Virus record (IMG/VR): IMGVR_UViG_3300010885_049703
Span: 1 to 64,000 of that record
DNA: 64,000 nucleotides
Reading direction: 5' to 3' (one strand)
From: a virus
Shown: in pieces, positions 31,686 to 47,864 of the stretch
Position numbering within the stretch: the stretch's first letter is position 1
Layout: each line of letters opens with the position of its first letter
Position numbers and translations under genes: made by a program
Notes under the pieces: generated by a model
The model's database searches: none
Seen by the model: only the letters and a program-made list of their open reading frames with translations
Told to the model about the DNA's origin: nothing

Positions 31686-31991
31686 ATGGAAACTGACTTA
31701 TTATCACATAGCCGCGCCCGTTTTAATCACGAGGCAGCCCGGCGTATACTTCGTGAAAAGTACGAAGCCAAAATGCTTTTTGCCTATCGTGGCGGCATGT
31801 GGCGTGCTGGCCCGGAACTTAATAATATGATATTCACCTGTGGTCGTATGGGAGAAGTTGTATTGCCAGACTTATATGGCAATCCTGTTAAGATCAACAC
31901 ACAAGAATTAATGCCATTAAGTCAGGAACGTTGGAACGAACAGATGACAGCCTGGTTGGTGGAATTTGAAGAATTGAGCCAACTGCGATGA
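31686..31991 (+). CDS. hypothetical protein (101 aa)
   Basis: Start re-set to ATG 31686, since the longer ORF would span the terminator. ATGA-coupled to the next gene. Confidence 0.6.
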   Translation: METDLLSHSRARFNHEAARRILREKYEAKMLFAYRGGMWRAGPELNNMIFTCGRMGEVVLPDLYGNPVKINTQELMPLSQERWNEQMTAWLVEFEELSQLR

Positions 31992-32803: not shown

Positions 32804-33563
32804 ACGTGGGTATCTAATACCGGCGCTTGACAACGAATCTACTGACTATGTGCGCTGTGCGCAACAACTGGCACACAGCATAAGACAGTTTGAGCCTGAG
32901 GCAAAAATCGCTGTGGTGACATTACGGCGTTGTGCAGATTCAGTGTTTGATTACGTGATTCCGTTGCCGCATGGTGATTGCAGCACTGGAGATAACAAAC
33001 AGTGTAATGATTGGCAAATGTTTTCAGCATCACCGTTTCGTCAGACTATAAAACTTGAAGCTGACATGATCATTGCATCGTCGATTGATCATTGGTGGGC
33101 AATGATGCAACATCGTGATGTGTGTATTAGCACAGGGTGCAGAGACTATTATGATCAACCTGCACAATCAAGATTCTATAGAAAGTTGTTTGACACCAAC
33201 AACTTACCTGATGTCTACAATGCCATAACGTATTGGCGAGTCAGCGACACCGCCAAAGAATTCTTTAAATTAGTACGTGCAATATTTGAAAACTGGACAG
33301 AGTATCGTAAACTATTGAAATTCGCCGATGAAGAAGCCAGCACTGATGTAGTGTATGCAATGGCTGCAAAGATAGTTGGAGTAGAACAGTGCACCATGCC
33401 GTTTGCTAGTTACCCACAAATAGTTCACATGAAAAAACATATCATTAACACTCGCACTAACGACTGGACACGTGAACTGGTCTGGGAAACTGATCCCTTG
33501 CGTATTCAAACTGTGGCGCAGTGGGGAGCATTTCACTATCACATCAAGGACTGGCAACCATGA
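32787..33563 (+). CDS. glycosyltransferase-like protein, GT-A fold (paralog)
   Basis: SPFRQTIKLEADM (ExD variant), STDVVYA and IVHMK motifs align with the previous ORF. Confidence 0.6.
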   Translation: MPILSERGYLIPALDNESTDYVRCAQQLAHSIRQFEPEAKIAVVTLRRCADSVFDYVIPLPHGDCSTGDNKQCNDWQMFSASPFRQTIKLEADMIIASSIDHWWAMMQHRDVCISTGCRDYYDQPAQSRFYRKLFDTNNLPDVYNAITYWRVSDTAKEFFKLVRAIFENWTEYRKLLKFADEEASTDVVYAMAAKIVGVEQCTMPFASYPQIVHMKKHIINTRTNDWTRELVWETDPLRIQTVAQWGAFHYHIKDWQP

Positions 33564-33892
33564 CACCTGAAGAATTTTGGAATATTTTACATGCTGTGCC
33601 TGAACCGCACCCAATATTCTATAGACTGTATTACGATGATCAAGGGTCGCCCTTATTCTACAGCATGGAGGATTTACCAGGTAATTACATTGACATTGAC
33701 AAAGAAACTTATTTTCAATCCAGCAGTTATGTAAGAGTGCGTGACGGTCAATTAATTCGCACCAGCATAAACACCAGTCGCAAATTAGTGCCCAGCAGCA
33801 TTGGATTTGCGTGTGATCCCAATGACGTTGCTGTAGTCAGCGACTCTTCCTCTAACCGATGGGCAGTAAAAAACTATGATTCAGAAAATTGA
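33560..33892 (+). CDS. hypothetical protein
   Basis: ATGA-coupled start at 33560. Overlaps the next gene. Confidence 0.6.
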   Translation: MTPEEFWNILHAVPEPHPIFYRLYYDDQGSPLFYSMEDLPGNYIDIDKETYFQSSSYVRVRDGQLIRTSINTSRKLVPSSIGFACDPNDVAVVSDSSSNRWAVKNYDSEN

Positions 33893-34802
33893 TATTGCAG
33901 ACTTAGATTGTATATTTTTAACTTATGATGAACCAAATGCTGAGACAAATTGGGTGCATGTTAGGAACATGGTGCCCTGGGCACGACGAGTGGATGGCGT
34001 TAAAGGGTCAGACGCTGCCCACAAAGCGGCAGCCATGGCTTCTGTTACCGATCGGTTTGTGCTCATTGATGGTGATAACATCCCTGATATTGGCTTTTTT
34101 TCATGTACACTGGAGTTGGATGATACCAATCGCGATTGTGTATTTCGCTGGCGTGCCAGGAATAACGTTAACGGACTAATGTATGGTAACGGTGGTATAA
34201 GTTGCTGGACAAAGGATTATGTACTAAACATGCTGACACACGAAGCGTCGGATGGCTCTGATGAGACTGCTGTAGAGTTTTGTTTTCACCCCCGGTACTG
34301 GGCAATGCATGATTGTTATAGTACCACACATATCAATGCCACTGACTTTCAGGCCTGGCGTGCTGGCTTCCGCGAAGGTGTTAAGATGTGTTTGGATCGT
34401 GGTCGCCGTCCTAGCATCAGTGAATTCCAACACCGTGTGGCACAACGTAACTTGGACAACCTAACTATCTGGCACAACATTGGCCGTGATATAGAAAACG
34501 GGGAGTGGGCTATTGCAGGATCACGACAAGGCACTTACATGACAATGCTCACAGAGTGGGACTACGCCAAGGTACAAAATTTTGATGAGTTGGCAGATCT
34601 TTGGAAGTCAGTGCAATCACAAGAACCCAACACGCTTGCTGGCAGAATGGCCGAAGAGTTGCACACACAATTAAACTTACCAATGCATTATACACAAGCA
34701 GGAGAAAGTGAATTTTTCAAGCATCATTATCAAGCCAACTGGCGTAATCGTGGCACGATGGTGCAAGAAATTGATGTCATTAGACAACAAGGAGTCTGGT
34801 AA
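33876..34802 (+). CDS. glycosyltransferase-like protein, GT-A fold
   Basis: IFLTYDEPNAE..W, RVDGVKG..AAHKAAA, LIDGDN (DxD), NGLMYGNGG and AWRAGFRE motifs. Confidence 0.6.
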   Translation: MIQKIDIADLDCIFLTYDEPNAETNWVHVRNMVPWARRVDGVKGSDAAHKAAAMASVTDRFVLIDGDNIPDIGFFSCTLELDDTNRDCVFRWRARNNVNGLMYGNGGISCWTKDYVLNMLTHEASDGSDETAVEFCFHPRYWAMHDCYSTTHINATDFQAWRAGFREGVKMCLDRGRRPSISEFQHRVAQRNLDNLTIWHNIGRDIENGEWAIAGSRQGTYMTMLTEWDYAKVQNFDELADLWKSVQSQEPNTLAGRMAEELHTQLNLPMHYTQAGESEFFKHHYQANWRNRGTMVQEIDVIRQQGVW

Positions 34803-34803
34803 T

Positions 34804-35850
34804 ATGAGTTTAATTAACAGCCATTGCGGGTTTGCACCACTGCAAGAAGTCTGGCTAGGTGATGTATATCCAACACACTTTTATGATCATTTGTCTGCAC
34901 CAGTACGCGATGCATTTCATACCATTACTGAATGGACCAAGGAAGACCTAGGCAAAATACATGCTAAACTAACTGAGCTGGGCGTAATTGTACGTAGACC
35001 TGAATACCATAGCATAGACGATTGTTTAAATCATAACGACAACTTGTTGAAACCTGTGGTTGCAGCCCGAGATGACACATTAGTGTTAGGATCAACTATG
35101 TATCATCTACGTAATCAATTTCGTCAAAACCCTTGGCAACAAGCACTGGATGATTACAGGGCCAGTGGCGCCACAGTATTAGAATATCAAGAAGGTGAGC
35201 CTTGGGCATGTATAAGTCCCCCGTGCATGGTACGTATTGGCCGCGACTTATATATAGATTGGATATACCACAACCATGTTTGGGGAATAGTAACAGAACC
35301 GTTAGTAGAACTAGCTAAAAATTATCGTGTACATGTAAGTATGATTGATGGACACAGCGATTGTGTATTTTGTCCAGTGCGAGAAGGGTTGATTCTAACT
35401 ACTGATTACAAGCAGTCTTACGACAAAACATTCCCTGGATGGCAAATACACAATATCAATCACAAGAAACGTAAAGGATCTCTAAACATGAGTGGTGGGT
35501 TTCATCAATGGCATGTACCTGATGTTAAAATAGGTGCCAACAAAGAGTTCCAGCAACATGTACAAACGAAAGCACAAGATTGGATAGGTAGTTACCAGGA
35601 AACTGTATTTGATGTAAATTTGCTAATAGTTGATGACAAAAATATTCTTAGCATAGGAGACGATGACGAAACATTTGAGTTCTTACACCATCAGGGTTAT
35701 AATGTGCATGCCTTTGATTTTCGTTGTAGAAATTTTTGGGACGGCGGCATGCATTGTTTAACAAATGACATTCGTAGGACTGGCGATTGCAAGGACTATT
35801 TCCCACACCGTGGTGGCGCAGCATTGGATTGGTTAATTGATGGAAGTTGA
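34804..35850 (+). CDS. amidinotransferase (pentein superfamily)
   Basis: Start re-set to ATG 34804. INS...PLQEVWLG, ARD, GHSD and C-terminal WDGGMHCLT with the catalytic Cys. Confidence 0.8.
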   Translation: MSLINSHCGFAPLQEVWLGDVYPTHFYDHLSAPVRDAFHTITEWTKEDLGKIHAKLTELGVIVRRPEYHSIDDCLNHNDNLLKPVVAARDDTLVLGSTMYHLRNQFRQNPWQQALDDYRASGATVLEYQEGEPWACISPPCMVRIGRDLYIDWIYHNHVWGIVTEPLVELAKNYRVHVSMIDGHSDCVFCPVREGLILTTDYKQSYDKTFPGWQIHNINHKKRKGSLNMSGGFHQWHVPDVKIGANKEFQQHVQTKAQDWIGSYQETVFDVNLLIVDDKNILSIGDDDETFEFLHHQGYNVHAFDFRCRNFWDGGMHCLTNDIRRTGDCKDYFPHRGGAALDWLIDGS

Positions 35851-36808
35851 TGTAGTTACTAGCGATTCGCTGATTTGGAACAAACAACAATTTATATTTG
35901 ATCTGATTGTTGCAGCGCAATCAGGCCAAGTCGTTGTGAATTTACTGCACGAAGGCCCTGACTGCATCGCTGCAGGTATAGATTTGGTACTAGATCAAAT
36001 TTGCGAATTAATGAGTCTGCCACGGGAGCATTTTTTAATACAGACTAGCAATCAACTAAGTTCTAGCGCATATCCTGAACAAAGAACATCGTTTGTTGAG
36101 TTAGCGTTAGCAAAGACGTTGGCAACGCAGAGGTTACCACAAACAAGCACATTGCAGCATAAATTTGGTATATTCATAGGTCGTAGTAACTGGCAAAGAT
36201 TGGGACTAGCAGCATATTTGAGCTCACAGTATCCTGAGCAAACCACAATGACTTTTCACTACGATAATCAAATTGATTATCATCGCAATAATTTTGGGAT
36301 CGAAGAATTTGTACAACGTAATTGGGAACGTGCTCCACAGATACTGGAGTTTTTGAAACGTTTGCCTATTACAAACGATCATCAAACTTATCCTATTTTA
36401 TGGAACAAACAAGGATTTGATTTACAAGAGCAATATAAATCCTTGTTTGTTGAAATAGTATGCGAAACTTACTTTACTGGTCGCACATTTTTTATAACTG
36501 AAAAAACTCTACGGTGTATTGTAAATCGTAGGCCATTTTTAGTGCAAGGTCCTAGATGCTATCTAAAAAATTTGCATGCACTGGGATTTAAAACATTTGA
36601 TCAGTGGTGGGACGAAGGGTATGATTTAGATCATTCAGATGCTAGATATCAAACACTATGCAATGGTATAGATTGGATCGCACAACAATCATCAAATACA
36701 ATACAGCAATGGTATCAAGACATGCAACCAGTATTGGAACACAATATAGAATGTTTAAAACAACTAAGCACAAAAAAGATACTTACAACAGATTTTTCTT
36801 ATGAATAA
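35840..36808 (+). CDS. glycosyltransferase-like protein (GT10-like TEK motif)
   Basis: EIVCET...FITEKT.R.I...RPF.V.G...LGFKTF..WDEGYD. One of four paralogs. Confidence 0.5.
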   Translation: MEVDVVTSDSLIWNKQQFIFDLIVAAQSGQVVVNLLHEGPDCIAAGIDLVLDQICELMSLPREHFLIQTSNQLSSSAYPEQRTSFVELALAKTLATQRLPQTSTLQHKFGIFIGRSNWQRLGLAAYLSSQYPEQTTMTFHYDNQIDYHRNNFGIEEFVQRNWERAPQILEFLKRLPITNDHQTYPILWNKQGFDLQEQYKSLFVEIVCETYFTGRTFFITEKTLRCIVNRRPFLVQGPRCYLKNLHALGFKTFDQWWDEGYDLDHSDARYQTLCNGIDWIAQQSSNTIQQWYQDMQPVLEHNIECLKQLSTKKILTTDFSYE

Positions 36809-38192
36809 AGGTGATGAATTAGTAGGAACCAAAAGCAAGTTTTTAACTTCTGCTGAGCAAATGAAAGAACAACTGGGACCTGCACGTTGCTATGCCAAGT
36901 GGCAGCAGGTTAGTCTGCATTTAACTACGGGCATGACCAACAGTTGCTATCATCCACCACTGCATGAAATAGATGCCACTTTACTGGCAGATAACCCTGG
37001 TGCATTACATAACACGCCGTATAAGAAAGAACAGCGTAAGATTATGTTGCGCAATGAACGTCCGGAGGAATGTAGTTATTGCTGGACACAAGAAGACATG
37101 GGCAACTTGTCAGACCGGCATTATCGTAGTGGAGAGCCTTGGGCTGATATAGATCTAACAAACTTAACCGGAGATGAAGATGTCATACCTACCTATGTGG
37201 AAGTTAATTTTAGTAATGTTTGCAATCTCAAGTGTAGCTATTGCAGCCCACAGTATAGTTCAACGTGGGCTGACGAAACTAACCGACATGGGGCCTATCC
37301 TACTAGAGTCCCTCATAATGAGCCGAGTCATTTTAACGGGCGTCGTAAGCCTATACCTGTTCGCGAAGATAACCCTTATGTAGAAGCATTCTGGCGTTGG
37401 TGGCCGCAGTTATATCCCAGACTAAAGCATTTTCGTATGACCGGTGGTGAACCATTGCTGGATAAAAACACATACCGGGTATTTGACTATGTGTTGGCAT
37501 TGCCCAAGATGGATCTGCACCTAAACGTTACATCAAATTTCAGTGTTGATTATCATGTGTTTTCACGGTATCTTGATTACGTCAAGAGATTATGCAATAC
37601 ACAAATTGAACATTTTATGCAGTATGTCAGCGTTGACACCGGTGATTGGATGCAAGCTGAATACATTAGACATGGCCTTGATATGAATTTGATGTTGAGT
37701 CATGTCAACAATTATCTTGATGAAGTGCCCAATCGCAGCAGCCTTACATTTATCATCACACTAAACAATCTCAGTGTAACAGGACTGGATCAACTGTTAG
37801 ATTATATTTTAGAACTACGTGCTAGATACAGTAAGACTTATCAACGTGTGTGGTTTGATACACCATTGCTGAGACAACCACGCTGGCAGAGTTTACAGAT
37901 ACTTCCTGTTGCATATCAACGACGCATAGAGCAACACATAGAATTCATGCGGCAGAATCTTATGCCTGAGGGTAGTTTTGTAGGATTCAAAGATTATGAA
38001 GTACAACGTATGCAACGTGCCTTGGATTGGATGCGCGAGCCACAGGATGCTGTAGAAGTAAACACCGCACGAGCAGACTTCTATCGCTTTTTTGGCGAAC
38101 ATGATCGCCGCCGTGGTACTAACTTCGTAGAAACTTTTCCAGAGATGACGACTTTTTGGCAGGAATGTGAATCACATGCTCGGCAATCGTAA
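36801..38192 (+). CDS. radical SAM enzyme with N-terminal twitch/SPASM-like domain (1)
   Basis: CNLKCSYC, TGGEP, and N-terminal C..KW..CYHPP..CSYC cysteines. Confidence 0.9.
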   Translation: MNKGDELVGTKSKFLTSAEQMKEQLGPARCYAKWQQVSLHLTTGMTNSCYHPPLHEIDATLLADNPGALHNTPYKKEQRKIMLRNERPEECSYCWTQEDMGNLSDRHYRSGEPWADIDLTNLTGDEDVIPTYVEVNFSNVCNLKCSYCSPQYSSTWADETNRHGAYPTRVPHNEPSHFNGRRKPIPVREDNPYVEAFWRWWPQLYPRLKHFRMTGGEPLLDKNTYRVFDYVLALPKMDLHLNVTSNFSVDYHVFSRYLDYVKRLCNTQIEHFMQYVSVDTGDWMQAEYIRHGLDMNLMLSHVNNYLDEVPNRSSLTFIITLNNLSVTGLDQLLDYILELRARYSKTYQRVWFDTPLLRQPRWQSLQILPVAYQRRIEQHIEFMRQNLMPEGSFVGFKDYEVQRMQRALDWMREPQDAVEVNTARADFYRFFGEHDRRRGTNFVETFPEMTTFWQECESHARQS

Positions 38193-39333
38193 ATTAATCT
38201 TAGACACATTCTGTGAAGTCTACGACTTACTTCGGCCCTGGATGGATGGCGATTTTTATGATTTTTCTCAATTAACTATAGAGCCTGGCTCCATTTATAT
38301 GGTGGGCCGGGCACAGTTTAATTTGAATGTACAAAAAGTACGTGACATAGTTGACAGCAAACAAGCCATTGTAGTAATCAGTAATCCAGCCGAAGGCAGT
38401 GAAACACTCAAACATCATATGCAACGTGCCGGGGTTAATGAGTATGTGCAAGATGGAAGATTACTATTGTTAGGCGGTGGCGACATGGAGTCTGAGTATC
38501 AATATCTGCAATACGACTCTTTCTTACCAAAAGTTTACGACTATCCAGAAAACTTAATTGAATGTCAGCGAACCCCTGAGATCTATACTCAACTTGATAA
38601 ACCTTATAAGTTTTTATTCTTAAATGGTCGCGCTCGCCCGCATAGAAAATTTTTGATACAAAGTTTTAGTCAATTAGGAATGTTGGACCAAGCAATCTGG
38701 ACTAATCTTGATTTGCACACAGGCAGTACTCAAGAAATAACAATGATGCGCCAAGGGAAAGATCTGATTGCAGAGACCATTCCAATTAAATTACTTGATT
38801 CAAAGTATGAAGTGAGTAGATATCATCGTAATCTCACTCGGGGATCACCAGAAAAATTTGTCAAAAATTCTCTGTTTGATATTGGAACCGGACAACCTGA
38901 ATGGGGAGAAATTTATCTCAAAGCCGATCTCTATATTGATACCTATTTTAGTGTAGTCACTGAAACAATATTCACTTATCCATATAGTTTCCGAACAGAG
39001 AAAATTTGGAAACCAGTTGCAATTGGGCATCCTTGGATAGCAGTTGCCAATGCAGGATTTTATCGCGATATCAAAAATTTGGGATTCCGTACATTTGATA
39101 AACTTATTGATGAAAGTTTTGATGACATTTCTAATAATTCAGATCGACTACATCGTGTGAAAGATGTTATAATTGATCTATATAATAGTGACTTGCCTAG
39201 TTTTATGTTAGCAGCGCAGGAAATTTGCGAATACAACCAACAACATCTCCAAGACATGCGTGTCAAAATACGTGCAGAGTTTCCAGAGAGATATCGTAAA
39301 TTTATGATTGAACAGGGAATTATCAATGAATGA
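38176..39333 (+). CDS. glycosyltransferase-like protein (GT10-like TEK motif)
   Basis: FLFLNGR.RPHR and SVVTET...RTEKIWKP...HPW...LGFRTF..IDESFD motifs. Confidence 0.5.
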   Translation: MLGNRKLILDTFCEVYDLLRPWMDGDFYDFSQLTIEPGSIYMVGRAQFNLNVQKVRDIVDSKQAIVVISNPAEGSETLKHHMQRAGVNEYVQDGRLLLLGGGDMESEYQYLQYDSFLPKVYDYPENLIECQRTPEIYTQLDKPYKFLFLNGRARPHRKFLIQSFSQLGMLDQAIWTNLDLHTGSTQEITMMRQGKDLIAETIPIKLLDSKYEVSRYHRNLTRGSPEKFVKNSLFDIGTGQPEWGEIYLKADLYIDTYFSVVTETIFTYPYSFRTEKIWKPVAIGHPWIAVANAGFYRDIKNLGFRTFDKLIDESFDDISNNSDRLHRVKDVIIDLYNSDLPSFMLAAQEICEYNQQHLQDMRVKIRAEFPERYRKFMIEQGIINE

Positions 39334-40663
39334 TTTAGAATTCCGACAACAAGTGCTTGATACTAAAAGCGCAAGTTTCTGTGCAGCCAAGTGGTACAAT
39401 GCCACTATTTGGTTAGGCTCGGGCATGACTACAAGTTGTCATCATCCATTGCCGCACAAAGTCAGTGTTGATGAAGTACAAATTAATCCTCGAGCATTGC
39501 ACAATACCCCAAAGAAAAAAGCAGAACGTCAAATGATGCAGCAAGGCGAACGTCCAGCTGGCTGCGAATACTGCTGGAAAATAGAAGACATGGGTCGTGA
39601 TGCTATAAGCGATCGTGTTTACAAAAGTAAAATTTATCCCATAGAGGATTTAAATCGTGCAATCAATACGCCACCAAATGAAGATATTAATCTTCGCACT
39701 CTTGAAATTAGTTTTGACCGTACTTGTCAATTCGCTTGCTCTTACTGCAATCCTGCTTTCAGTTCAACATGGGTTAAAGATATCAGAGACAATGGACCCT
39801 ATACTAATTTACTGTCAGACGGTAGGAATCACTTTACTCACGCTCATGACAGTAGTCAACTTTATAGATTTGGCGAGAGTAATCCGTATGTGGAAGCGTT
39901 TTTTAAGTGGTGGGAATCGGACCTACATCAAACATTAGACGAATTACGCATCACCGGTGGTGAACCATTGATGTCAGGATATACTTGGCAGCTACTGGAT
40001 TGGTTCAAAGAGAATAAAGGCAAGAGTAAAACACGTCTTGCGATCAACAGTAATCTTGGCACACAAGTTGACATAGATAGATTGTTTACCAGTGTTGATG
40101 AGCCTATTGATTTGTACACCAGCAACGAGTCTGTGGGCTTACAAGCAGAGTACATACGTGATGGTCTTGTCTGGGATGATTGGGCCAATACAGTAGAACT
40201 TATATTAGACAATCAAATTGGTCACAAACTACGTGGGTTGCATATTATGTGTACTGTCAACACATTGTGTTTGGATAGTCTAGTGGATTTTTTAGATTGC
40301 ATAGTCAATTGGAAACTAAGTTATGGCACAGACGCAGTGAGTTTTACATTAAATATACTACGCTTCCCTAGCTTCCAAAGCCCCTTGGTATTGCCCGAAC
40401 ACTTGCGTACACAGTACAAAGATCAACTTGCTGATTTTATGGCCAGACACAAAGATAACAGTTGCTTGCATGAACATGAATGGAATCACATGCAACGACT
40501 TGTGGATTATCTTGATGTAGTCAAAACTCCTCACAGTGACTCAGCAGAGTTAGAAGTGTTACAACGAGATTTTAAGCAATTCTATCAACAATATGATCAA
40601 CGTCGAGGGAAAGACTTTGCTACAGCATTTCCAAATTTAATGGAGTGGTATGACCAAATTTGA
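39326..40663 (+). CDS. radical SAM enzyme with N-terminal twitch/SPASM-like domain (2)
   Basis: CQFACSYC, TGGEP, and N-terminal CAAKW..CHHP..CEYC. Confidence 0.9.
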   Translation: MNDLEFRQQVLDTKSASFCAAKWYNATIWLGSGMTTSCHHPLPHKVSVDEVQINPRALHNTPKKKAERQMMQQGERPAGCEYCWKIEDMGRDAISDRVYKSKIYPIEDLNRAINTPPNEDINLRTLEISFDRTCQFACSYCNPAFSSTWVKDIRDNGPYTNLLSDGRNHFTHAHDSSQLYRFGESNPYVEAFFKWWESDLHQTLDELRITGGEPLMSGYTWQLLDWFKENKGKSKTRLAINSNLGTQVDIDRLFTSVDEPIDLYTSNESVGLQAEYIRDGLVWDDWANTVELILDNQIGHKLRGLHIMCTVNTLCLDSLVDFLDCIVNWKLSYGTDAVSFTLNILRFPSFQSPLVLPEHLRTQYKDQLADFMARHKDNSCLHEHEWNHMQRLVDYLDVVKTPHSDSAELEVLQRDFKQFYQQYDQRRGKDFATAFPNLMEWYDQI

Positions 40664-41951
40664 TTACAACAGTTCTGATCCAGTTAATATTTCGCTTGAT
40701 GACCTTGATGAACATAAACAGTTTCTGTTAACTGAATCAAAAACATTTTGCATTTACCCCTGGATGCACTTACACGCCTATCCTACCGGAGAAGCCTATC
40801 CTTGTTGCTATAGTGAAATGTGGGCGCCAGTGGGATCATGCAAGAAAAATAGCTTAGAAGAAATTTGGAATGATGCACCAATCCGAAAAATACGACAGAA
40901 CATGCTTTCAGAAAATCGTAGTCCAGCTTGCACACGTTGCTACGAACAAGAGTCTGCAGGGTTTCGCAGTGGACGCCAAGGTGCCAATAAGCATCATGGA
41001 CATCATATTCATAAAATTGACGGCACTGCCAGTGATGGCCATCTTGACAAATTTGAAATGTCATACTGGGATATTCGATTTAGTAACTTATGCAACTTAA
41101 AATGTCGTAGTTGCGGACATATCTTTTCAAGTCAATGGTATCAGGATCAAGCTAAACTAGCCGGACCCGACTGGGCGAAGAATCATAAAGTTTTAAACAT
41201 ATCCGGTCGCGCAGAAGATGACATGTGGAATCAATTACTTCCACATATTGATTATGTAGAACAAATTTACTTTGCTGGCGGCGAACCTCTTCTCATGGAA
41301 GAACACTATAATATTCTTGAGGAACTTGTGCGTCGTAAAATGTTTCATGTAAAATTAATTTACAACACTAACTTTACACATACCAAGCTCAAAGATAAGA
41401 GTGTGTTTGAGTATTGGAAATTGTTCAACAGTATCAGCGTTGGCGCAAGCCTTGACGGTGCTGACCACTATGCTGAGTATATTCGCAAAGGTACAAACTG
41501 GCAGCAAGTAGAACAGAATCGCCTTGATATGATACGAATCTGCCCCGAGGTTGACTTTTACATTAGTCCCACGCTGAGTATTATGAATGCCTGGCACCTG
41601 CCAGATTTTCATCGCGATTGGGTTGAACGTGGCTTTATACGTCACCAAGATTTAAATGTCAACATTCTTCAGGATCCAAATTTTTATAGGATTGACATTG
41701 CCGGTGCAGCATACAAACAAGAGCTCAAAGATAAATTTGAAAGGCATTTAGACTGGTTGCGCCCACATGACCCTCTGCAACGAGCCACGGTAGGATTTGA
41801 GTCAGCTATAAATTTCATGATGGCCAAAGACAACAGTGAGTTGCAGGTAAAGTTTTTTGAACGCACTCAGCAACTTGATGACATACGCGGAGAAAGTATT
41901 TTCAAAGTCATACCAGAACTAGCAAGAATAAATGCAAATACCACACAATAA
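40650..41951 (+). CDS. radical SAM enzyme with N-terminal twitch/SPASM-like domain (3)
   Basis: CNLKCRSC, AGGEP, and N-terminal CIYPW..G..YPCC..CTRC. Confidence 0.9.
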   Translation: MTKFDYNSSDPVNISLDDLDEHKQFLLTESKTFCIYPWMHLHAYPTGEAYPCCYSEMWAPVGSCKKNSLEEIWNDAPIRKIRQNMLSENRSPACTRCYEQESAGFRSGRQGANKHHGHHIHKIDGTASDGHLDKFEMSYWDIRFSNLCNLKCRSCGHIFSSQWYQDQAKLAGPDWAKNHKVLNISGRAEDDMWNQLLPHIDYVEQIYFAGGEPLLMEEHYNILEELVRRKMFHVKLIYNTNFTHTKLKDKSVFEYWKLFNSISVGASLDGADHYAEYIRKGTNWQQVEQNRLDMIRICPEVDFYISPTLSIMNAWHLPDFHRDWVERGFIRHQDLNVNILQDPNFYRIDIAGAAYKQELKDKFERHLDWLRPHDPLQRATVGFESAINFMMAKDNSELQVKFFERTQQLDDIRGESIFKVIPELARINANTTQ

Positions 41952-43161
41952 ATTTTGTATCCTTCCATGGGTAAGTTTGGAAACTAGTCCCGTGGGAACA
42001 GTACGACCCTGTTGTTTAGCCAAGGATGAAATACACAATGACGGTAATAAATTCCACCTTACGACCTCAACCTTTGATCAAATACGAAATAGCAGTTACA
42101 TGCAAGGCCTCCGACAGGAATTTCTTGCAGGTCAACTTCCATCAACATGTGAGCGTTGTTGGGCAATTGAAGATTCAGGAGGAACCTCCAAGCGACAGCA
42201 TACCCTTAACAGACTTAAACACATAGTTGTTGATACAGAGTGGACTGATGATTCTAAAGATTTAATATTCTTGGATCTTAAACTAGGCAACATCTGTAAT
42301 CTCAAATGTCGTATATGTGGACCTTGGAGTTCGAGTACCTATGCCTCGGAAGAAATAGGTACCGTGATGACATTGGAACGCAAGCAAACCTATGCTTATC
42401 AGATGTTGCGCGAAGGACGCTGGCCAAGAGAGAGCCCAGACTTCTGGCAGCAACTCAGTGATATTGCTGGTCAAATACGTTATCTTGAATTTACCGGTGG
42501 CGAACCATTTATGATTGCCGAACACTTTGATTTTCTACAGACACTTGTGGATCGCGGTGTTGCCGGCAATGTTGAAATACATTATAACACCAATGGCACA
42601 CAGTATCCTGAACGTGGTATTGAGTTATGGCCACATTTTAAAACAGTTGAAATCGCCATTAGCATTGATGACTTGGGTGAACGATTTGAATATCAGCGCA
42701 CGGGTGCCCGGTGGACGGAAGTACAAGACAATATATATAAATTTAGAAAACTGCGACGCAACAGCAAAAACATTCAATTACAATTGTGTTGTACAATAAG
42801 CATTTGGAATGTTGTTTACTTCAGCGAGATTGCAGCCTGGGCTAGTTTATTTCCCTGGGACTTTGTTTACTGGAACTACCTACATGATTCCCCAACGTGG
42901 TGCATTGCCAACATGGTTGAGCCAGTCAAAGACAATATAGCAAAGCATTTACAAAGTCAACTCATAGTTGATCAACATGCTGATGAACGAGATAAAATAA
43001 TCGACTTTATGTATTCAAGAGAAGGATACATGGGGTGCGGGCGAGGTGGCGCATTAACTGATGAAATTGAACGATTTGATAAACTACGCAATCAACGTCT
43101 AGGAGATGTTGCACCGCTATTGGCAACAATGTTATACTATGACGGACCTTATGACGACTAA
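41932..43161 (+). CDS. radical SAM enzyme with N-terminal twitch/SPASM-like domain (4)
   Basis: CNLKCRIC, TGGEP, and N-terminal CILPW..G..RPCC..CERC. Confidence 0.9.
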   Translation: MQIPHNKFCILPWVSLETSPVGTVRPCCLAKDEIHNDGNKFHLTTSTFDQIRNSSYMQGLRQEFLAGQLPSTCERCWAIEDSGGTSKRQHTLNRLKHIVVDTEWTDDSKDLIFLDLKLGNICNLKCRICGPWSSSTYASEEIGTVMTLERKQTYAYQMLREGRWPRESPDFWQQLSDIAGQIRYLEFTGGEPFMIAEHFDFLQTLVDRGVAGNVEIHYNTNGTQYPERGIELWPHFKTVEIAISIDDLGERFEYQRTGARWTEVQDNIYKFRKLRRNSKNIQLQLCCTISIWNVVYFSEIAAWASLFPWDFVYWNYLHDSPTWCIANMVEPVKDNIAKHLQSQLIVDQHADERDKIIDFMYSREGYMGCGRGGALTDEIERFDKLRNQRLGDVAPLLATMLYYDGPYDD

Positions 43162-44449
43162 GCCCAAAACACTGTGCATGGCGCCATGGGTTCATACCTA
43201 TCTTTCACCGCAAACTGAACGTCGCATGTGTTGTGCCAGCAGAGAACCTGCGCAAAACTTTCAACAGTATATTGATACCCAGGCCGGTAGTGGCGAGTAT
43301 ATCCCTATTACATTAGAACAACATTGGAATGGTGATCATATGCGAGATGTACGCAGACGTATGATGGCCGGTGAATCTGTGCCTGAGTGTGACGTTTGCA
43401 ACAACAAATTATTGAATACTGACGTTTATAGAGATTATTTCTGGCAATTATTTAAACACCAGTATGACGAAATTTGGGCAACCACTGCCAGCGATGGGTC
43501 AACCACTATGCAGCCCATAAGTTGGGATTATCGTTTCAGCAATCTTTGTAATTTCAAATGTCGTACGTGTGGTGATATGTTGTCAAGCTCTTGGGAAAGT
43601 GAACAGCGCCAGTATCAGATGGTTAACTGGTCAAACCCCAAAAATAATTGGATGAAATCTGATATTCGACAACAGATTACCCAATTTCAAGACACGCAAA
43701 TTGAACAAGAGTTTGCCAAAGCAGTGGAAGAACACCGAGTAGAAGAAATATATTGGGCAGGTGGTGAACCGTTGATGTATGAACAACATTGGCGGTACAT
43801 GAAAAGAATTATTGAACTAGGAGATGGAAAACGTGTTTATGCAAGATATAACAGTAATCTTAGTCGCATCAGCTATGGCGGTGTTAATTTGTTTGATGAT
43901 ATTCTTGTTCATCTTCGCGATTGGCAGATGTGCGCGAGCCTTGACGGTACCGGCTCCACAGGAGAATACATCAGGACAGGACTTGATTACCAAAAATGGC
44001 TCAAAAATTTCCGGCACGGACTAACAGTACAGACTAATCCCAGGCAAATGCGTGTTGACTTTACATTGACATTGCCTGGCATGACCGAAGTTCTTCGCAT
44101 TGAAGAACTGTGTCATGAACTGCATGTGGCACTGTTGGCCAAAGTTATATTCAGTTTTTCCCCAGACATTGTTATGTCACCGTTGGCCTTGCCTCGGCAG
44201 CTGTTGGATCCTTGGCTAGACGATCTAATTAAACAGAGTTCAATCCCCACAATGCGTAGATTGTTAGAAGAACTAAAAACAAGACCTTGTTTTGAAGAAC
44301 AATACACTGCAAAAGAATATCGTGATGGGCTTGCTCGTGGTAAACAACGTATGTTAAAATTAGAATCAATACGTGCATGTAATACTAGCTTGGATAAAAT
44401 TTTAAAAGAAAGACCCGAAGTTTATGAATGGTGGCAATCAATTGATTAA
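43151..44449 (+). CDS. radical SAM enzyme with N-terminal twitch/SPASM-like domain (5)
   Basis: CNFKCRTC, AGGEP, and N-terminal CMAPW..MCC..CDVC. Start is 43151 or 43139. Confidence 0.9.
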   Translation: MTTKPKTLCMAPWVHTYLSPQTERRMCCASREPAQNFQQYIDTQAGSGEYIPITLEQHWNGDHMRDVRRRMMAGESVPECDVCNNKLLNTDVYRDYFWQLFKHQYDEIWATTASDGSTTMQPISWDYRFSNLCNFKCRTCGDMLSSSWESEQRQYQMVNWSNPKNNWMKSDIRQQITQFQDTQIEQEFAKAVEEHRVEEIYWAGGEPLMYEQHWRYMKRIIELGDGKRVYARYNSNLSRISYGGVNLFDDILVHLRDWQMCASLDGTGSTGEYIRTGLDYQKWLKNFRHGLTVQTNPRQMRVDFTLTLPGMTEVLRIEELCHELHVALLAKVIFSFSPDIVMSPLALPRQLLDPWLDDLIKQSSIPTMRRLLEELKTRPCFEEQYTAKEYRDGLARGKQRMLKLESIRACNTSLDKILKERPEVYEWWQSID

Positions 44450-45506
44450 AGTTACATTGCGTAACCCTTTAAAAAAGTCTCAACAATTATCTTATTACAT
44501 CCAACCCTTGGATAATCAATTAGCCAAAGATTGGGTCCGGGCGTTAGAGAATGTCATTGATCAAAATTTAATGCTAGAGAAAAACTTTTGCTTTCTAGGG
44601 TTTCCGCATGCCTTGCGTTCACTGGACTATTTGTGCAATGGTCTCAATCAATCTGTTGGTCAAATCAACGACTTCTTTGGCGGACACTATCAAATCACAG
44701 AAACATATACACCTGAAAGTTGCGTGGCCGAGGACCTAGGGCCAAATCATGAAACATTTAATACATTGCACAATCACTTTGAAAGATTACAAGGCACTGT
44801 GGAGAATCTCAGTACTTTCTATCGTAGTGCCAATGATCCCACAAAGTTTGCTATTAGACAACTCAACAATATCTGTCATGAGCTTGAGAGTTTAATTTTA
44901 AGTCAGCGTAAACTTCGTCTTGATCCTGACTGGGTTAGGCCCAGCCAAATTACAACTTGGCTCAATGCCCCCAGGCATACACTAACTGATGAGCATCGTC
45001 GAGGATTCGTTGACAATGGATATCAGCGCAATTTTGGCACAGTGTATATGCATTGGTGTCAAATTGGCAAAACGTACTTTGAAGTCTGGCGAGATGAACA
45101 TGCCCCTAAACTGACAGATACAGTGTGTGAAGCCATAACACACTTACAATATTACTCAGGGGAGTTTGACATTGAATGGGGACGCACAGTTGATAATCGT
45201 GAACAGTGGTGGCTTGAAGATATAGCACCGTTCTATCAATGGCTAGACGACAATGGACTTGACAAGAATGATACATCGCTGAGTCTTGGACATTTGCCAA
45301 TCGGCACGGTATTGCTGAAAGAAAGTTTTGGTACTGAAAATTGGGAAGAAATTTGGCCAATGCTGGAGCAGCATCTAGATATATATTCAGTAGAAGTCAA
45401 CGGACATACAGCCACGTATGATTATGTCTGGAGCGACAGTGATTACAATCAATTGCAAATTGACATGTTGCGCCCAGGTTACAAACACAGTTCAAGGAAC
45501 TCGTAA
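44424..45506 (+). CDS. hypothetical protein in the biosynthetic operon
   Basis: 360-aa ORF overlapping both neighbours. No family recognised. Confidence 0.7.
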   Translation: MNGGNQLIKVTLRNPLKKSQQLSYYIQPLDNQLAKDWVRALENVIDQNLMLEKNFCFLGFPHALRSLDYLCNGLNQSVGQINDFFGGHYQITETYTPESCVAEDLGPNHETFNTLHNHFERLQGTVENLSTFYRSANDPTKFAIRQLNNICHELESLILSQRKLRLDPDWVRPSQITTWLNAPRHTLTDEHRRGFVDNGYQRNFGTVYMHWCQIGKTYFEVWRDEHAPKLTDTVCEAITHLQYYSGEFDIEWGRTVDNREQWWLEDIAPFYQWLDDNGLDKNDTSLSLGHLPIGTVLLKESFGTENWEEIWPMLEQHLDIYSVEVNGHTATYDYVWSDSDYNQLQIDMLRPGYKHSSRNS

Positions 45507-45607
45507 TGAATTTTTTTAAAAAATGGTGGGATTGGATTCGTTTAGAAATCCGTTACCGCCGCAAACTGCGCGAACTTCGTAAAAGAGATCCGTTCATATA
45601 CAAATGA
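45506..45607 (+). CDS. 33-aa basic micropeptide ending RDPFIYK
   Basis: Not in ORF track. MNFFKKWWDWIRLEIRYRRKLRELRKRDPFIYK. TAATG-coupled upstream and ATGA-coupled to the carbamoyltransferase. Confidence 0.75.
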   Translation: MNFFKKWWDWIRLEIRYRRKLRELRKRDPFIYK

Positions 45608-47085
45608 ATATCCTAGGTATCTCAGCCGGGTTTCACGATGCTGCAATAAGTCTAGTGGATCATCACGGTGATATACTATTTGCCGGGCACAGTGAACGAT
45701 ACAGTAAAGTAAAGAACGATTCGGACATTTGTCAAGCATTGTTGTCTGAGATTCGTGACTACCAAATTGATACCATAGCATACTATGAACGTCCATTAGC
45801 AAAGCAATTACGACAATGGTACAGTGGGCAAGGCATTGAATGGAACAAGTTGTTGGCCAAGAGTATTGTACGTGATCAATGTGCACCGTGGCTACCCAAC
45901 AACCCCCGACAAATAAAGTCGTTCAATCATCATTTGAGCCATGCAGCAGCAGGATTTCAAACCAGTACTTTTGATCGTGCCACAGTGGTAGTGATAGACG
46001 CTATTGGTGAATGGGACACGGTTAGTATCTGGGGAGCTGAATATGTCAACGGTCGGGCAAAGTATACAAAACTATGGGGACAACGATATCCACATAGCAT
46101 AGGATTGTTTTATAGTGCTATGACTCAACGTGTAGGCCTTAAACCCAACGAAGATGAATACATCTTAATGGGCATGAGTGCATATGGTAAACGTGATCTT
46201 GGGGATGTGATTAGTCATCGTTTCGTACACGATGAAGTTGATATTCTGTTTAAAGAAAACTTACATACCGGCATTGTGGCTGATTATCTTGGATACGCAC
46301 AGGATACAGATATTGCTGCCGGTACACAGGATCTAGCAGAAACGTTGATATACAATGTAATGCGTCGTGCAAGAGAGTTTAACTGGAGCACGAATCTTGT
46401 TTATATGGGCGGTGTTGCCCTTAACTGTTTAGCGAATAGGAACCTTGGTGAATACTTTGAACATATATGGATTATGCCTAATCCTGGTGATGCTGGTAGT
46501 AGCCTTGGTGCTGCGGCACTTGCCTATGGTGGTCGTCTCAACTGGCGCAATGCTTATCTTGGGCATAATATACCTGGGCCATATCCTGTTGATTCCCTTC
46601 TTGATAGCCTACTGGCTGATGGGATTGTTGGTGTTGCTAACGGTCGTGCAGAGTTTGGGCCAAGAGCATTAGGCAATCGTAGTTTGCTGGCAGACCCACG
46701 TGGCGCAGATATAAAGGACAGAGTGAATGAAATTAAGCGACGTCAAAAATTTAGACCATTCGCCCCTGTTGTACTGGAGGAGATGGCTGATCAGTACTTT
46801 GATTTCCACCCTGGGTGGTGTAATAGCCGTTATATGCAGTCAGTCGCTCGTTGTCGCTTTCCTAGTGATTATCCTGCTATCTGTCATCATGATGGGACCA
46901 GTAGAGTACAGACGGTTCCAAAGGACGGTTCAGGAATCAGAGAACTGTTAGAAAAGTGGTTTATACTGACTGATTGCCCTATGCTACTCAACACAAGTTT
47001 AAACATTCGAGGTGAACCAATGGTCAATGATCGCAGCGATGCAGATAGGTTTGAAAATTTATATAAAGTAAAGGTACTAAGTTAA
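45604..47085 (+). CDS. O-carbamoyltransferase (NodU/CmcH/TobZ family)
   Basis: HDAA, ERYS, HHLSHAA, GGVALNC, EFGPRALGNRS, RPFAP, DGTSRVQTV and LNTSLN.RGEP motifs. Confidence 0.95.
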   Translation: MNILGISAGFHDAAISLVDHHGDILFAGHSERYSKVKNDSDICQALLSEIRDYQIDTIAYYERPLAKQLRQWYSGQGIEWNKLLAKSIVRDQCAPWLPNNPRQIKSFNHHLSHAAAGFQTSTFDRATVVVIDAIGEWDTVSIWGAEYVNGRAKYTKLWGQRYPHSIGLFYSAMTQRVGLKPNEDEYILMGMSAYGKRDLGDVISHRFVHDEVDILFKENLHTGIVADYLGYAQDTDIAAGTQDLAETLIYNVMRRAREFNWSTNLVYMGGVALNCLANRNLGEYFEHIWIMPNPGDAGSSLGAAALAYGGRLNWRNAYLGHNIPGPYPVDSLLDSLLADGIVGVANGRAEFGPRALGNRSLLADPRGADIKDRVNEIKRRQKFRPFAPVVLEEMADQYFDFHPGWCNSRYMQSVARCRFPSDYPAICHHDGTSRVQTVPKDGSGIRELLEKWFILTDCPMLLNTSLNIRGEPMVNDRSDADRFENLYKVKVLS

Positions 47086-47864
47086 TGATTTCCTCCACTA
47101 CAACTCGCTACAGAGATAATTTTTATTATTACAACAATGATGAAGTCATAGGTCGTAGTTTACAAAAGTACGGTGAGTATGGTCAAACTGAACTTGATTT
47201 TTTACTTTGGATTGTTGATCAACGTTATACAGTGTATGATGTAGGCGCCAACATAGGAGTATATTCCACAGCATTTGCATCTCGTGGTGCTCAAGTCTAT
47301 GCGTTTGAACCAAACCCCCACAATTATTCTTTGTTGAAACGAAATACCGAAGGATTAACTAATGTACATTGTCGACAAAATGCTATTGGCAATGGGCTTG
47401 GAAAAATCTCTATTGAAGATTTTAATCCTGAAGAATCTGGCAACTATGGAACAATGTCAACCAAACATAATCGCGGTGTTGAAGTAGACTTAATGGCATT
47501 AGACTATCTTGATATCCCTATACCTAACTTGCTAAAAATTGATGTAGAGGGAGCCGAGCTCGATGTGTTGTTGGGCTGCGAGAAAAAAATTGCTGAATCA
47601 GTGCCATGCATTGTGTATGAAGCACACGAAACCGAACAGTTTAGTGAGATTTGGCATTTCTTAAAACAATTTGATTATCGTTTGTATTGGTTGCAATGCA
47701 TGAATTACAATCCCAAGAACTTCAATGAGAATTCAGAAAACATATTTGAAAACACTGCATTGTTTAGTGTAGTGGCTTGGCCTCCAGGTTGGCCACTGTC
47801 ATTGACTGCTCAAGAAGTCACTGGCCCCAATGACGACTGGCACAAATTTGAAACTTACAGATAA
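47085..47864 (+). CDS. FkbM-family SAM-dependent methyltransferase
   Basis: DVGANIG, AFEPNP and KIDVEGAE motifs. Confidence 0.9.
   Translation: MISSTTTRYRDNFYYYNNDEVIGRSLQKYGEYGQTELDFLLWIVDQRYTVYDVGANIGVYSTAFASRGAQVYAFEPNPHNYSLLKRNTEGLTNVHCRQNAIGNGLGKISIEDFNPEESGNYGTMSTKHNRGVEVDLMALDYLDIPIPNLLKIDVEGAELDVLLGCEKKIAESVPCIVYEAHETEQFSEIWHFLKQFDYRLYWLQCMNYNPKNFNENSENIFENTALFSVVAWPPGWPLSLTAQEVTGPNDDWHKFETYR

What the first reader, a model, noticed from the sequence alone, without database searches (positions are those of the whole stretch)
36801..44449. Tandem array of five radical SAM paralogs with an N-terminal twitch/SPASM-like domain
Seen: all five have an intact CxxxCxxC and GGEP, preceded by a four-Cys module (C..W...C(C/H)...CxxC). 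They fall into two subtypes: C.AKW/C.HP (36801, 39326) and C..PW/CC (40650, 41932, 43151). Known: SPASM/twitch domains are normally C-terminal. N-terminal-twitch radical SAM proteins exist as a family with no established function to my knowledge, while twitch enzymes BtrN and NeoN act on sugars. Inference: interleaving with glycosyltransferase-like genes suggests position-specific sugar oxidases/epimerases, giving this orphan family a functional context. Five multi-[4Fe-4S] enzymes is a large investment for a phage.
Basis: partly seen in the sequence, partly recalled or inferred. Interest (0 to 1): 0.8.

Follow-up and report, generated by a model that had tools for sequence, protein, structure and literature searches.

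The report
Five twitch-first radical SAM genes, phage
A giant freshwater phage carries five old, intact copies of a catalogued but never-tested iron-sulfur "radical SAM" enzyme. They sit in a fixed order among sugar-transferring and sugar-decorating genes, so they most likely edit a sugar structure by radical chemistry nobody has assayed.

Summary
Five ORFs (36801-38192, 39308-40663, 40650-41951, 41932-43161, 43106-44449) all score 282-399 bits against NCBIfam NF033640 (N_Twi_rSAM, cut-off 170). All keep four N-terminal cysteines, CxxxCxxC and GGEP.

The N-terminal module is homologous to BtrN's C-terminal twitch domain. The copies are 18-31% identical to each other, yet each has its own ortholog (54-69% identity) in the same order in about 80 uncultured jumbo-phage contigs. 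Complete relatives (344-364 kb) carry 9-12 copies.

The sugar context holds up:
- The interleaved ORFs fold as GT-B glycosyltransferases, with four paralogs in the window.
- The same co-directional block holds an amidinotransferase-like gene, a NodU-type carbamoyltransferase and an FkbM methyltransferase.
- Elsewhere the family is fused to GT2 domains in both orders, and once to a domain matching methyltransferase families that include TylF.
- An unnamed, possibly GT2-like partner family (33876-34802) accompanies the arrays in phages and in Bdellovibrionota chromosomes.

The chemistry and the substrate are still inferred. Fusions to TPR/Sel1 repeats and one to a subtilase-like piece keep a protein-substrate reading alive. 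I found no paper on the family.

This scan has already reported the same array on many other phage contigs, with the same reading. It is a real, interesting orphan system, but not new to the scan.

The parts
36801..38192 (+). RS1, N-terminal-twitch radical SAM protein (subtype AKW / SCYHP)
   Evidence: NF033640 at 304.7 bits, cut-off 170. Motifs. Own ortholog clade at about 64% identity in 85 loci.
39308..40663 (+). RS2, N-terminal-twitch radical SAM protein (subtype AKW / SCHHP). An alternative start is ATG 39326.
   Evidence: NF033640 at 288.2 bits. Sister clade to RS1. Orthologs at about 69% identity.
40650..41951 (+). RS3, N-terminal-twitch radical SAM protein (subtype PW / CC); best match to the family model
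   Evidence: NF033640 at 398.6 bits. Pfam SPASM at residues 34-98 and Radical_SAM at 143-300. AF2 model pLDDT 96.4, pTM 0.93. More than 7,400 homologs in metagenomes, the best 120 at 68-85% identity.
41932..43161 (+). RS4, N-terminal-twitch radical SAM protein (subtype PW / CC)
   Evidence: NF033640 at 338 bits. Pfam SPASM at residues 9-77. Own ortholog clade.
43106..44449 (+). RS5, N-terminal-twitch radical SAM protein (subtype PW / CC). An alternative start is ATG 43151.
   Evidence: NF033640 at 282.4 bits. Own ortholog clade at about 68% identity.
38167..39333 (+). G2, GT-B-fold glycosyltransferase-like protein lying between RS1 and RS2
   Evidence: No Pfam or NCBIfam hit. AF2 model pLDDT 93.8. 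All 50 best PDB matches are GT-B glycosyltransferases, Z 13.1-8.9, full length. Foldseek best hits are SdgB and GT10 fucosyltransferase.
35837..36808 (+). G1, paralog of G2 (same GT-B-like family), just upstream of RS1
   Evidence: A profile built without any window sequence hits G1 at 8e-75. Present in about half of the related loci.
48879..50117 (-). m412, third paralog of the G family
   Evidence: Profile without window sequences, E 3e-76.
50041..51150 (-). m369, fourth and more distant member of the G family (C-terminal half matches)
   Evidence: Profile without window sequences, E 1e-36.
33876..34802 (+). X308, unnamed family that most consistently accompanies N_Twi arrays; possibly a diverged GT-A/GT2-like protein
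   Evidence: Found in 75 of 85 related loci at about 65% identity. Also found beside N_Twi genes in distant viral loci L091 and L092, in contig L110 and in Bdellovibrionota chromosomes L135 and L138. The GT2 link is only weak: Atlas score 0.87, and 2-3 of 19 members at E 0.02-0.09.
51149..52819 (+). p556, two-part protein whose C-terminal half belongs to the X308 family
   Evidence: Profile without window sequences, E 4.5e-57, residues 286-544.
34708..35850 (+). X380, amidinotransferase-like protein (C-terminal GGMHCLTND with the catalytic-Cys motif)
   Evidence: phmmer against PDB sequences: L-arginine:glycine amidinotransferase 2e-5, inosamine-phosphate amidinotransferase StrB1 2.1e-5, also HsvA and SxtG.
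44424..45506 (+). Y360, conserved unknown protein that closes the array
   Evidence: No family hit. Follows RS5 in 69 of 85 loci.
45604..47085 (+). NodU/CmcH-type carbamoyltransferase
   Evidence: Pfam Carbam_trans_N and Carbam_trans_C at 1e-36 and 1e-46; PHROG 1601. Follows Y360 in 67 of 85 loci.
47085..47864 (+). FkbM-family methyltransferase
   Evidence: Pfam Methyltransf_21 at 4.5e-22; TIGR01444 at 1.9e-29.
31988..33563 (+). X271 and X258, two conserved unknown ORFs that open the co-directional block. By eye each has a D-x-D-like segment, but they are unassigned.
   Evidence: No family hit. Conserved in 59-62 of 85 loci. A terminator-like hairpin at 31634-31653 and a promoter-like site at 31651-31679 separate them from the fibre gene upstream.
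52743..56699 (-). Sugar-nucleotide tailoring genes: SDR epimerase/dehydratase x2, DegT-family aminotransferase, PIG-L-family deacetylase
   Evidence: Pfam Epimerase 5e-38 and 6e-41, DegT_DnrJ_EryC1 3e-55, PIG-L 5e-15.

Best explanation
The five genes encode two-cluster radical SAM enzymes of the NF033640 family. Each has a standard CxxxCxxC site for the SAM-cleaving [4Fe-4S] cluster. Each also has a four-cysteine twitch module for one auxiliary cluster, and this module lies before the core instead of after it. They are five ancient, non-redundant paralogs kept in a fixed order in a large clade of freshwater jumbo phages. I read them as a set of tailoring enzymes, each abstracting a hydrogen atom from a different position or residue of a sugar or glycan. 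That sugar or glycan would be assembled and decorated by the genes of the same co-directional block: GT-B paralogs, the X308 partner family, an amidinotransferase-like protein, a carbamoyltransferase and a methyltransferase, plus nearby SDR, DegT and PIG-L genes. By analogy with BtrN and NeoN, a fully cysteine-ligated auxiliary cluster would serve electron transfer. That would give either alcohol-to-ketone oxidation, which could feed transamination and then amidination or carbamoylation, or epimerisation. The acceptor is probably a macromolecular glycoconjugate, perhaps on the virion fibres encoded just upstream. Shown: family membership, motif and order conservation, the GT-B fold of the neighbours, and the gene fusions. 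Inferred: that the clusters bind, that the substrate is a carbohydrate, the reaction type and the acceptor.
For: - Family and motifs.
- The twitch module aligns to BtrN residues 183-258 at E 3e-5.
- The full-length model is confident (pLDDT 96.4, pTM 0.93), so the N-terminal module is predicted to pack on the core.
- There are five orthogroups in fixed order in about 80 loci, flanked by X308, Y360 and the carbamoyltransferase.
- Complete relatives hold 9-12 copies.
- G2 has a GT-B fold, and the window holds four G-family paralogs.
- Full-length N_Twi domains are fused to GT2 domains in both orders (P0163, P0405; P0399, P0400), and once to a domain matching methyltransferase families that include TylF (P0403).
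- The X308 family lies beside N_Twi arrays in distant phages and in Bdellovibrionota chromosomes.
- Some scattered copies in complete relatives also sit next to G-family and FkbM-like genes.
- The block holds carbamoyltransferase, FkbM, DegT, SDR, PIG-L and amidinotransferase-like genes.
- ORFs in the array overlap end to end, leaving no room for a precursor-peptide gene.
Against: - No member of the family has a known substrate.
- Structural neighbours tie at Z 11-13 between a sugar enzyme (BlsE) and peptide or protein maturases (CteB, anSME, SkfB, SuiB). By sequence profile the best PDB match is the RiPP enzyme TigE.
- Many family members are fused to TPR or Sel1 repeats, and one to a subtilase-like piece. 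Such partners usually bind proteins.
- Only about 4 of 13 scattered copies in complete relatives have a detectable GT-like neighbour.
- The neighbours in Vibrio phage K566, RsoM2USA and one Bdellovibrio MAG are uninformative.
- The X308 to GT2 link is weak.
Confidence: 0.5

Rival explanations
1. The five enzymes are protein or peptide maturases. They would install cross-links, epimerise residues or oxidise side chains on a phage protein, for example the giant 4745-residue fibre protein or the Thr/Gly-rich protein encoded just upstream. The sugar genes would act on the same protein independently.
For: - The closest solved structures include anSME, CteB, SkfB and SuiB, and by sequence profile TigE.
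- About 50 copies in one Elusimicrobia MAG, and several metagenome proteins, are fused to long TPR or Sel1 arrays. One is fused to a subtilase-like piece.
- The block follows the fibre genes directly.
Against: - There are only four auxiliary cysteines (one cluster), not the seven-Cys SPASM pattern.
- Neither the model's secondary structure nor the fold matches show an extra N-terminal recognition domain.
- The overlapping ORFs leave no room for a precursor gene.
- Fusions to GT2 and to a methyltransferase domain (TylF among its Pfam matches) point to sugars.
- TPR domains also occur on protein glycosyltransferases, so they fit a glycoprotein substrate too (established knowledge: OGT, SPY, FlmG).
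Confidence: 0.25
2. The block makes a free, aminoglycoside-like small molecule (a decorated amino-sugar or pseudo-oligosaccharide) rather than a glycan on a macromolecule. The rSAM enzymes would act as BtrN/NeoN/AprD4-type tailoring enzymes on pathway intermediates.
For: The enzyme families present match aminoglycoside pathways: StrB1-like amidinotransferase, carbamoyltransferase, DegT-family aminotransferase and PIG-L-family deacetylase, GT-B transferases, and twitch rSAM with homology to the BtrN twitch.
Against: - All of these families are also common in ordinary glycan synthesis.
- No cyclitol synthase or exporter was seen, although most neighbouring ORFs have no family hit.
- The block sits behind fibre genes.
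- TPR fusions elsewhere suggest macromolecular partners.
Confidence: 0.12
3. The block hypermodifies phage DNA, by glycosylating and further tailoring a base, as T4 does with its glucosyltransferases.
For: T4 beta- and alpha-glucosyltransferases are among the tied top structural matches of G2 (Z 12.4 and 11.3).
Against: - No thymidylate-synthase-like hydroxymethylase was found in this record or in four relatives, three of them 91-100% complete.
- The deazaguanine island lies more than 20 kb beyond the window.
- GT-B matches to DNA and non-DNA enzymes tie.
- The same partner family occurs in Bdellovibrionota chromosomes.
Confidence: 0.05

Closest known systems
NCBIfam NF033640, N_Twi_rSAM (twitch domain-containing radical SAM protein)
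   Same: All five proteins match the model end to end, well above its cut-off. They share the N-terminal four-Cys module, CxxxCxxC and GGE(P).
   Different: Nothing differs in architecture, so they are members. The family itself has no characterised member in the literature I could search. The fixed five-gene order, 9-12 copies per phage genome and the partner families are context the family record does not give.
BtrN (butirosin 2-deoxy-scyllo-inosamine dehydrogenase) and other twitch radical SAM sugar enzymes (NeoN, AprD4, BlsE)
   Same: The auxiliary module is homologous to BtrN's twitch domain: profile positions 14-87 align to BtrN 183-258 at E 3e-5. It has the same C-x17-C ... C-x2-C spacing (direct reading). 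BlsE is the top structural neighbour, at Z 12.8. The genes sit among sugar genes.
   Different: The twitch module lies before the radical SAM core, not after it. Similarity outside the twitch and core motifs is low (TM 0.35-0.40). Whether they oxidise or epimerise a sugar is untested.
Radical SAM-SPASM protein and peptide maturases (anSME, CteB, SkfB, SuiB, TigE)
   Same: Their core folds tie with BlsE as the nearest solved structures (Z 11.5-12.3). TigE is the best PDB match by sequence profile, at 2e-10.
   Different: These proteins have one auxiliary cluster site, not two. No seven-Cys SPASM motif, recognition domain or precursor-peptide gene is visible.
GT-B glycosyltransferases (GT10 fucosyltransferases, T4 BGT/AGT, SdgB) for the interleaved G1/G2 genes
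   Same: The G2 model matches a full-length two-Rossmann GT-B fold; all 50 best matches belong to this class.
   Different: No sequence-level match to any Pfam, NCBIfam or PDB family. Donor, acceptor and catalytic residues are unknown.

Membership tests
NCBIfam NF033640 N_Twi_rSAM | Whole-protein score above the curated cut-off (170 bits) with near full-length coverage of the 398-position model | tested here: met
   Scores are 304.7, 288.2, 398.6, 338.0 and 282.4 bits, covering model positions 1-4 to 396-398. Confirmed on the DNA.
NCBIfam NF033640 N_Twi_rSAM | Twitch-type Cys module placed N-terminal to the radical SAM core | tested here: met
   C30, C49, C91 and C94 lie before C141/C145/C148 in all five. 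Pfam SPASM falls at residues 34-98 and 9-77 of RS3 and RS4.
Radical SAM superfamily | CxxxCxxC cluster motif and GGE SAM-binding motif | tested here: met
   Both are invariant in the five copies and in 115 family members.
Radical SAM superfamily | Binds [4Fe-4S] and cleaves SAM to 5'-deoxyadenosine | not testable with these tools
   Needs anaerobic reconstitution and an assay.
Twitch domain (truncated SPASM, one auxiliary cluster) | Homology to a solved twitch domain, with four conserved Cys and no second CxxCxxxxxCxxxC set | tested here: met
   Profile positions 14-87 align to BtrN 183-258 at E 3.2e-5. Only C34, C53, C94 and C97 are conserved outside the core motif.
BtrN/NeoN-type sugar-tailoring radical SAM enzymes | Twitch domain C-terminal to the core; demonstrated sugar substrate | tested here: not met
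   The domain order is reversed. The substrate is unknown. So they may work like these enzymes, but they are not members.
RiPP-type radical SAM-SPASM maturases | Seven-Cys SPASM motif binding two auxiliary clusters | tested here: not met
   Only four auxiliary Cys are conserved.
RiPP-type radical SAM-SPASM maturases | Peptide-recognition (RRE) domain and an adjacent precursor-peptide gene | tested here: inconclusive
   The model's secondary structure shows no extra N-terminal domain, and the overlapping ORFs leave no room for a small gene. An RRE was not searched for directly, and a distant protein substrate is not excluded.
GT-B glycosyltransferases (for G1, G2, m412, m369) | Two-Rossmann GT-B fold over the whole protein | tested here: met
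   The G2 model (pLDDT 93.8) matches only GT-B enzymes among its 50 best hits, at Z 13.1-8.9 with 244-297 aligned residues.
GT-B glycosyltransferases (for G1, G2, m412, m369) | Nucleotide-sugar binding and transfer activity | not tested
   No sequence family match. Catalytic residues were not examined.

The most novel reading that the evidence does not exclude
N_Twi radical SAM enzymes are a new class of carbohydrate editors that work on an assembled glycan or glycoprotein. They would carry out radical epimerisation or oxidation of individual sugar residues after transfer, as the GT2 fusions in both orders and the TPR fusions suggest. Jumbo phages would use five to twelve of them to build a hypermodified sugar coat on their fibres.
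Probability: 0.3. Interest if true: 0.8.

Novelty: new member of a known kind. Interest (0 to 1): 0.55.

Why it matters
NF033640 is a very large orphan family. A profile of the five copies finds 5,553 clusters (at 50% identity) at E <= 1e-30, and I could find no paper on it.

The phage array places it in a defined and conserved genetic setting: a fixed order of five orthogroups with GT-B, X308, carbamoyltransferase and methyltransferase partners. The gene fusions (GT2, one methyltransferase domain with TylF among its matches, TPR) give concrete candidate substrates to test.

Cultured Vibrio phages K566 and K567 carry four copies, so the question can be addressed at the bench. If the enzymes edit glycans by radical chemistry, that adds a new way of diversifying sugars. 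It would also explain why giant phages invest in up to a dozen oxygen-sensitive iron-sulfur enzymes.

Tried and rejected
- Nucleotide search of cultured phages found one marginal hit. Protein search found only Vibrio phages K566/K567, RsoM2USA and one marine fragment. The plasmid collection gave nothing.
- Pfam, NCBIfam and PHROGs gave no family for G1, G2, Y360, X308, X258, X271, m346, m412, m369 or p556.
- Profiles of the G family and of X308 found no significant match among PDB sequences.
- The protein atlas gave only weak leads: GT10 at 0.79 for G2 and GT2 at 0.87 for X308. A member-wise Pfam scan of the X308 family gave 2-3 weak GT2 hits out of 19. A profile search with the X308 alignment returned thousands of 'hypothetical protein' entries without domains.
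- Literature searches for the family name, its accession, 'N-terminal SPASM', jumbo-phage radical SAM and twitch/polysaccharide/epimerase found nothing relevant.
- Annotated neighbours in K566 and RsoM2USA are all hypothetical. tblastn and profiles found no G or X308 relatives in K566.
- The Bdellovibrio MAG neighbourhood L108 (GroEL, trypsin) and the Pacearchaeota-binned contig L109 (clamp loader, IMPDH) gave no functional hint.
- A pyrimidine-hydroxymethyl DNA-modification route was considered and set aside, because no ThyA-like gene is present in complete relatives.
- Promoter and terminator counts in the block equal those of shuffled sequence. Only the hairpin at 31634-31653 looks convincing.
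- The atomic coordinates of the models were not available to me, so I could not measure the distance between the two cluster sites.


Full report
**What is there**

The window is the first 64 kb of a 114-kb IMG/VR virus record estimated at 33% complete. Upstream genes match phage baseplate and virion protein families. They include a 4745-residue ORF and a fibre-like protein with an intramolecular-chaperone-type C-terminus.

From 36801 to 44449 lie five long + strand ORFs whose ends overlap one another. All five match NCBIfam NF033640, 'twitch domain-containing radical SAM protein', over the whole model at 282-399 bits against a cut-off of 170. Pfam places a SPASM hit at the N-terminus of two of them, ahead of the Radical_SAM hit.

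The five-way alignment has these invariant residues: four N-terminal cysteines and a tryptophan, then CxxxCxxC, GGEP and an EYxRxG segment. In an alignment of 115 family members the same cysteines are invariant or at least 90% conserved. Its start coordinates for copies 2 and 5 are internal ATGs of the longest frames.

**The auxiliary module is a twitch domain**

A profile of the 115 sequences, searched against all PDB chain sequences, aligns its positions 14-87 to residues 183-258 of BtrN. That stretch is BtrN's C-terminal twitch domain, and the E-value is 3e-5. The spacing in RS3 (C34, C53, C94, C97) is C-x17/18-C ... C-x2-C (direct reading). From memory this resembles BtrN's auxiliary-cluster ligands, but I did not check that against the structure.

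Only four auxiliary cysteines are conserved. So one auxiliary cluster, fully ligated by cysteine, is expected. This is an inference, because cluster binding cannot be tested here.

An AlphaFold2 model of RS3 built on that alignment is very confident over the whole chain (pLDDT 96.4, pTM 0.93). That implies the N-terminal module packs against the core. Solved structures match only the core and tie with one another: BlsE Z 12.8, CteB 12.3, anSME 12.1, SkfB 12.0, viperin 11.6. Foldseek TM-scores are 0.35-0.40. The fold therefore places the family among SPASM/twitch enzymes, but it does not say whether the substrate is a sugar or a peptide.

**The array is old and conserved**

The five copies are 18-31% identical to each other. 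RS3 alone has more than 7,400 homologs in public metagenomes, and the 120 best are 68-85% identical.

Eighty IMG/VR contigs, plus one contig binned as a Haliscomenobacter MAG, carry the region. In these loci each copy has its own ortholog (median 54-69% identity) in the order RS1, RS2, RS3, RS4, RS5. The array is preceded by X308 and followed by Y360 and a carbamoyltransferase. GT-like genes, SDR genes or extra rSAM copies are variably inserted.

A tree recovers five orthogroups, with RS1 and RS2 as sisters. Of 421 such ORFs, 410 keep both core motifs. Four large relatives (286-364 kb, three of them 91-100% complete, one with terminal repeats) hold 7-12 copies: five in the array and the rest scattered.

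The family is very large: 5,553 clusters at 50% identity at E <= 1e-30. Many proteins carry two or three fused copies.

**Surroundings**

The ORF between RS1 and RS2 (G2) has no sequence-family match. Its model (pLDDT 93.8) nevertheless matches only GT-B glycosyltransferases among the 50 best PDB hits, over its full length at Z 13.1-8.9. These include T4 BGT, GT10 fucosyltransferases and SdgB. G1, m412 and m369 belong to the same family, as a profile built without window sequences shows.

Other genes in the neighbourhood:
- X380 matches amidinotransferases, including StrB1, around the catalytic cysteine.
- After the array come a NodU-type carbamoyltransferase and an FkbM methyltransferase.
- On the other strand lie two SDR epimerase/dehydratases, a DegT-family aminotransferase and a PIG-L-family deacetylase.
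- A terminator-like hairpin with an overlapping promoter-like site at 31634-31679 separates the fibre gene from the block that starts at 31988. Otherwise such sites are no more frequent than in shuffled sequence.

**Evidence from elsewhere on the substrate**

Three observations favour carbohydrate:
1. Full-length N_Twi domains are fused to GT2 glycosyltransferase domains in both orders, in four unrelated metagenome proteins. One more is fused to a domain matching several methyltransferase families, TylF among them.
2. The X308 family is also the C-terminal half of p556. It lies beside N_Twi genes in very distant viral loci, in a contig binned as a Pacearchaeota MAG that also carries a 50%-identical carbamoyltransferase and a DegT homolog, and in Bdellovibrionota chromosomes. 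Its own nature is only weakly hinted to be GT2-like.
3. Some scattered copies in complete phage relatives sit next to G-family and FkbM-like genes.

Other observations favour a protein partner:
- One Elusimicrobia MAG holds 92 matches, about 70 of them above the family cut-off. Many sit in long tandem open frames, and all ten that I scanned carry N-terminal TPR arrays.
- Other metagenome proteins carry TPR or Sel1 repeats, and one carries a subtilase-like piece.

TPR arrays also occur on protein glycosyltransferases (established knowledge). The two sets of clues can therefore be reconciled by a glycoprotein or other macromolecular glycoconjugate as substrate. That reconciliation is an inference.

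**Distribution**

- The family is absent above cut-off from 14 control genomes.
- It was found in 1 of 151 Elusimicrobiota genomes sampled.
- It was found in 45 of 201 Bdellovibrionota genomes sampled, often as chromosomal arrays with eight or more copies.
- Among cultured phages, Vibrio phages K566 and K567 carry four copies in a similar arrangement, and Ralstonia phage RsoM2USA carries one.

**Rivals**

- A protein-maturase role remains plausible (about 0.25), for the reasons given above.
- A free aminoglycoside-like product would fit the enzyme families present but has no specific support (about 0.12).
- DNA hypermodification is unlikely (about 0.05). No thymidylate-synthase-like hydroxymethylase occurs in this record or in complete relatives, and the partner family is also chromosomal in bacteria.

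**Verdict**

The link to sugar genes is now supported by fold, by fusions and by a recurrent partner family. The reaction and the substrate remain untested.

I found no literature on the family. Other reports of this scan describe the same array on many other phage contigs and reach the same reading, so this is a further instance rather than a first sighting. New here, as far as those notes show, are:
- the alignment to the BtrN twitch domain;
- the GT2 fusions in both orders and the methyltransferase fusion;
- the TPR-fused expansion in one Elusimicrobia MAG;
- the X308 partner family in Bdellovibrionota chromosomes;
- the amidinotransferase-like neighbour.

Noticed in passing
G001 (Elusimicrobia MAG), e.g. 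L106:254-13840 and L107:4045-17160: One 2.9-Mb Elusimicrobia MAG has 92 matches to NF033640, about 70 above cut-off. Many lie in 540-1130-residue tandem frames, and all ten scanned carry long N-terminal TPR arrays. None of 150 other Elusimicrobiota genomes sampled has the family.
   Followed up: partly
window 34708-35850 (+): A phage gene resembles amidinotransferases (AGAT, StrB1, HsvA, SxtG) around the catalytic cysteine. It would add a guanidino group to an amine, which is unusual for a phage.
   Followed up: partly
window 14172-28409 (+): A single 4745-residue ORF follows the baseplate wedge gene and is presumably a giant fibre or baseplate-attached protein. The next genes include a Thr/Gly-rich 323-residue protein (30643-31614) that would be a plausible glycosylation target.
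   Followed up: no
window 31634-31679 (+): A strong GC-rich hairpin with a T-run, overlapped by a promoter-like site (10 of 12 matches), lies between the last fibre-like gene and the start of the sugar/rSAM block. This suggests a separate transcription unit.
   Followed up: no
window 63314-64000 (-) and 56997-57674 (-): S-adenosylhomocysteine hydrolase (cut by the window end) and ThyX lie near the block. The hydrolase could support the phage's heavy use of SAM.
   Followed up: no
window 59005-60285 (-) and 61456-62544 (-): A DUF2201 metallopeptidase-like/VWA protein and a MoxR-like AAA ATPase form a pair of unknown role in the phage.
   Followed up: no
G004 (MAG labelled Haliscomenobacter), contigs C1:104540-113620 and C3:16983-26137: Two different contigs of this MAG each carry a phage-type five-gene N_Twi array syntenic with the window. 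These are probably jumbo-phage contigs binned with the bacterium, and possibly a hint at the host.
   Followed up: no
L112 (Vibrio phage K566, OZ196521.1:161548-168284): A cultured 255-kb Vibrio phage has four N_Twi genes (locus tags 0303, 0305, 0306, 0308) interleaved with hypothetical genes in a layout like the window's. It could serve as an experimental model.
   Followed up: partly
P0023 and about a third of the best RS3 homologs: Many RS3 orthologs are 560-570 residues long, with an unassigned extension of about 135 residues at the N-terminus that the window's copy lacks.
   Followed up: no
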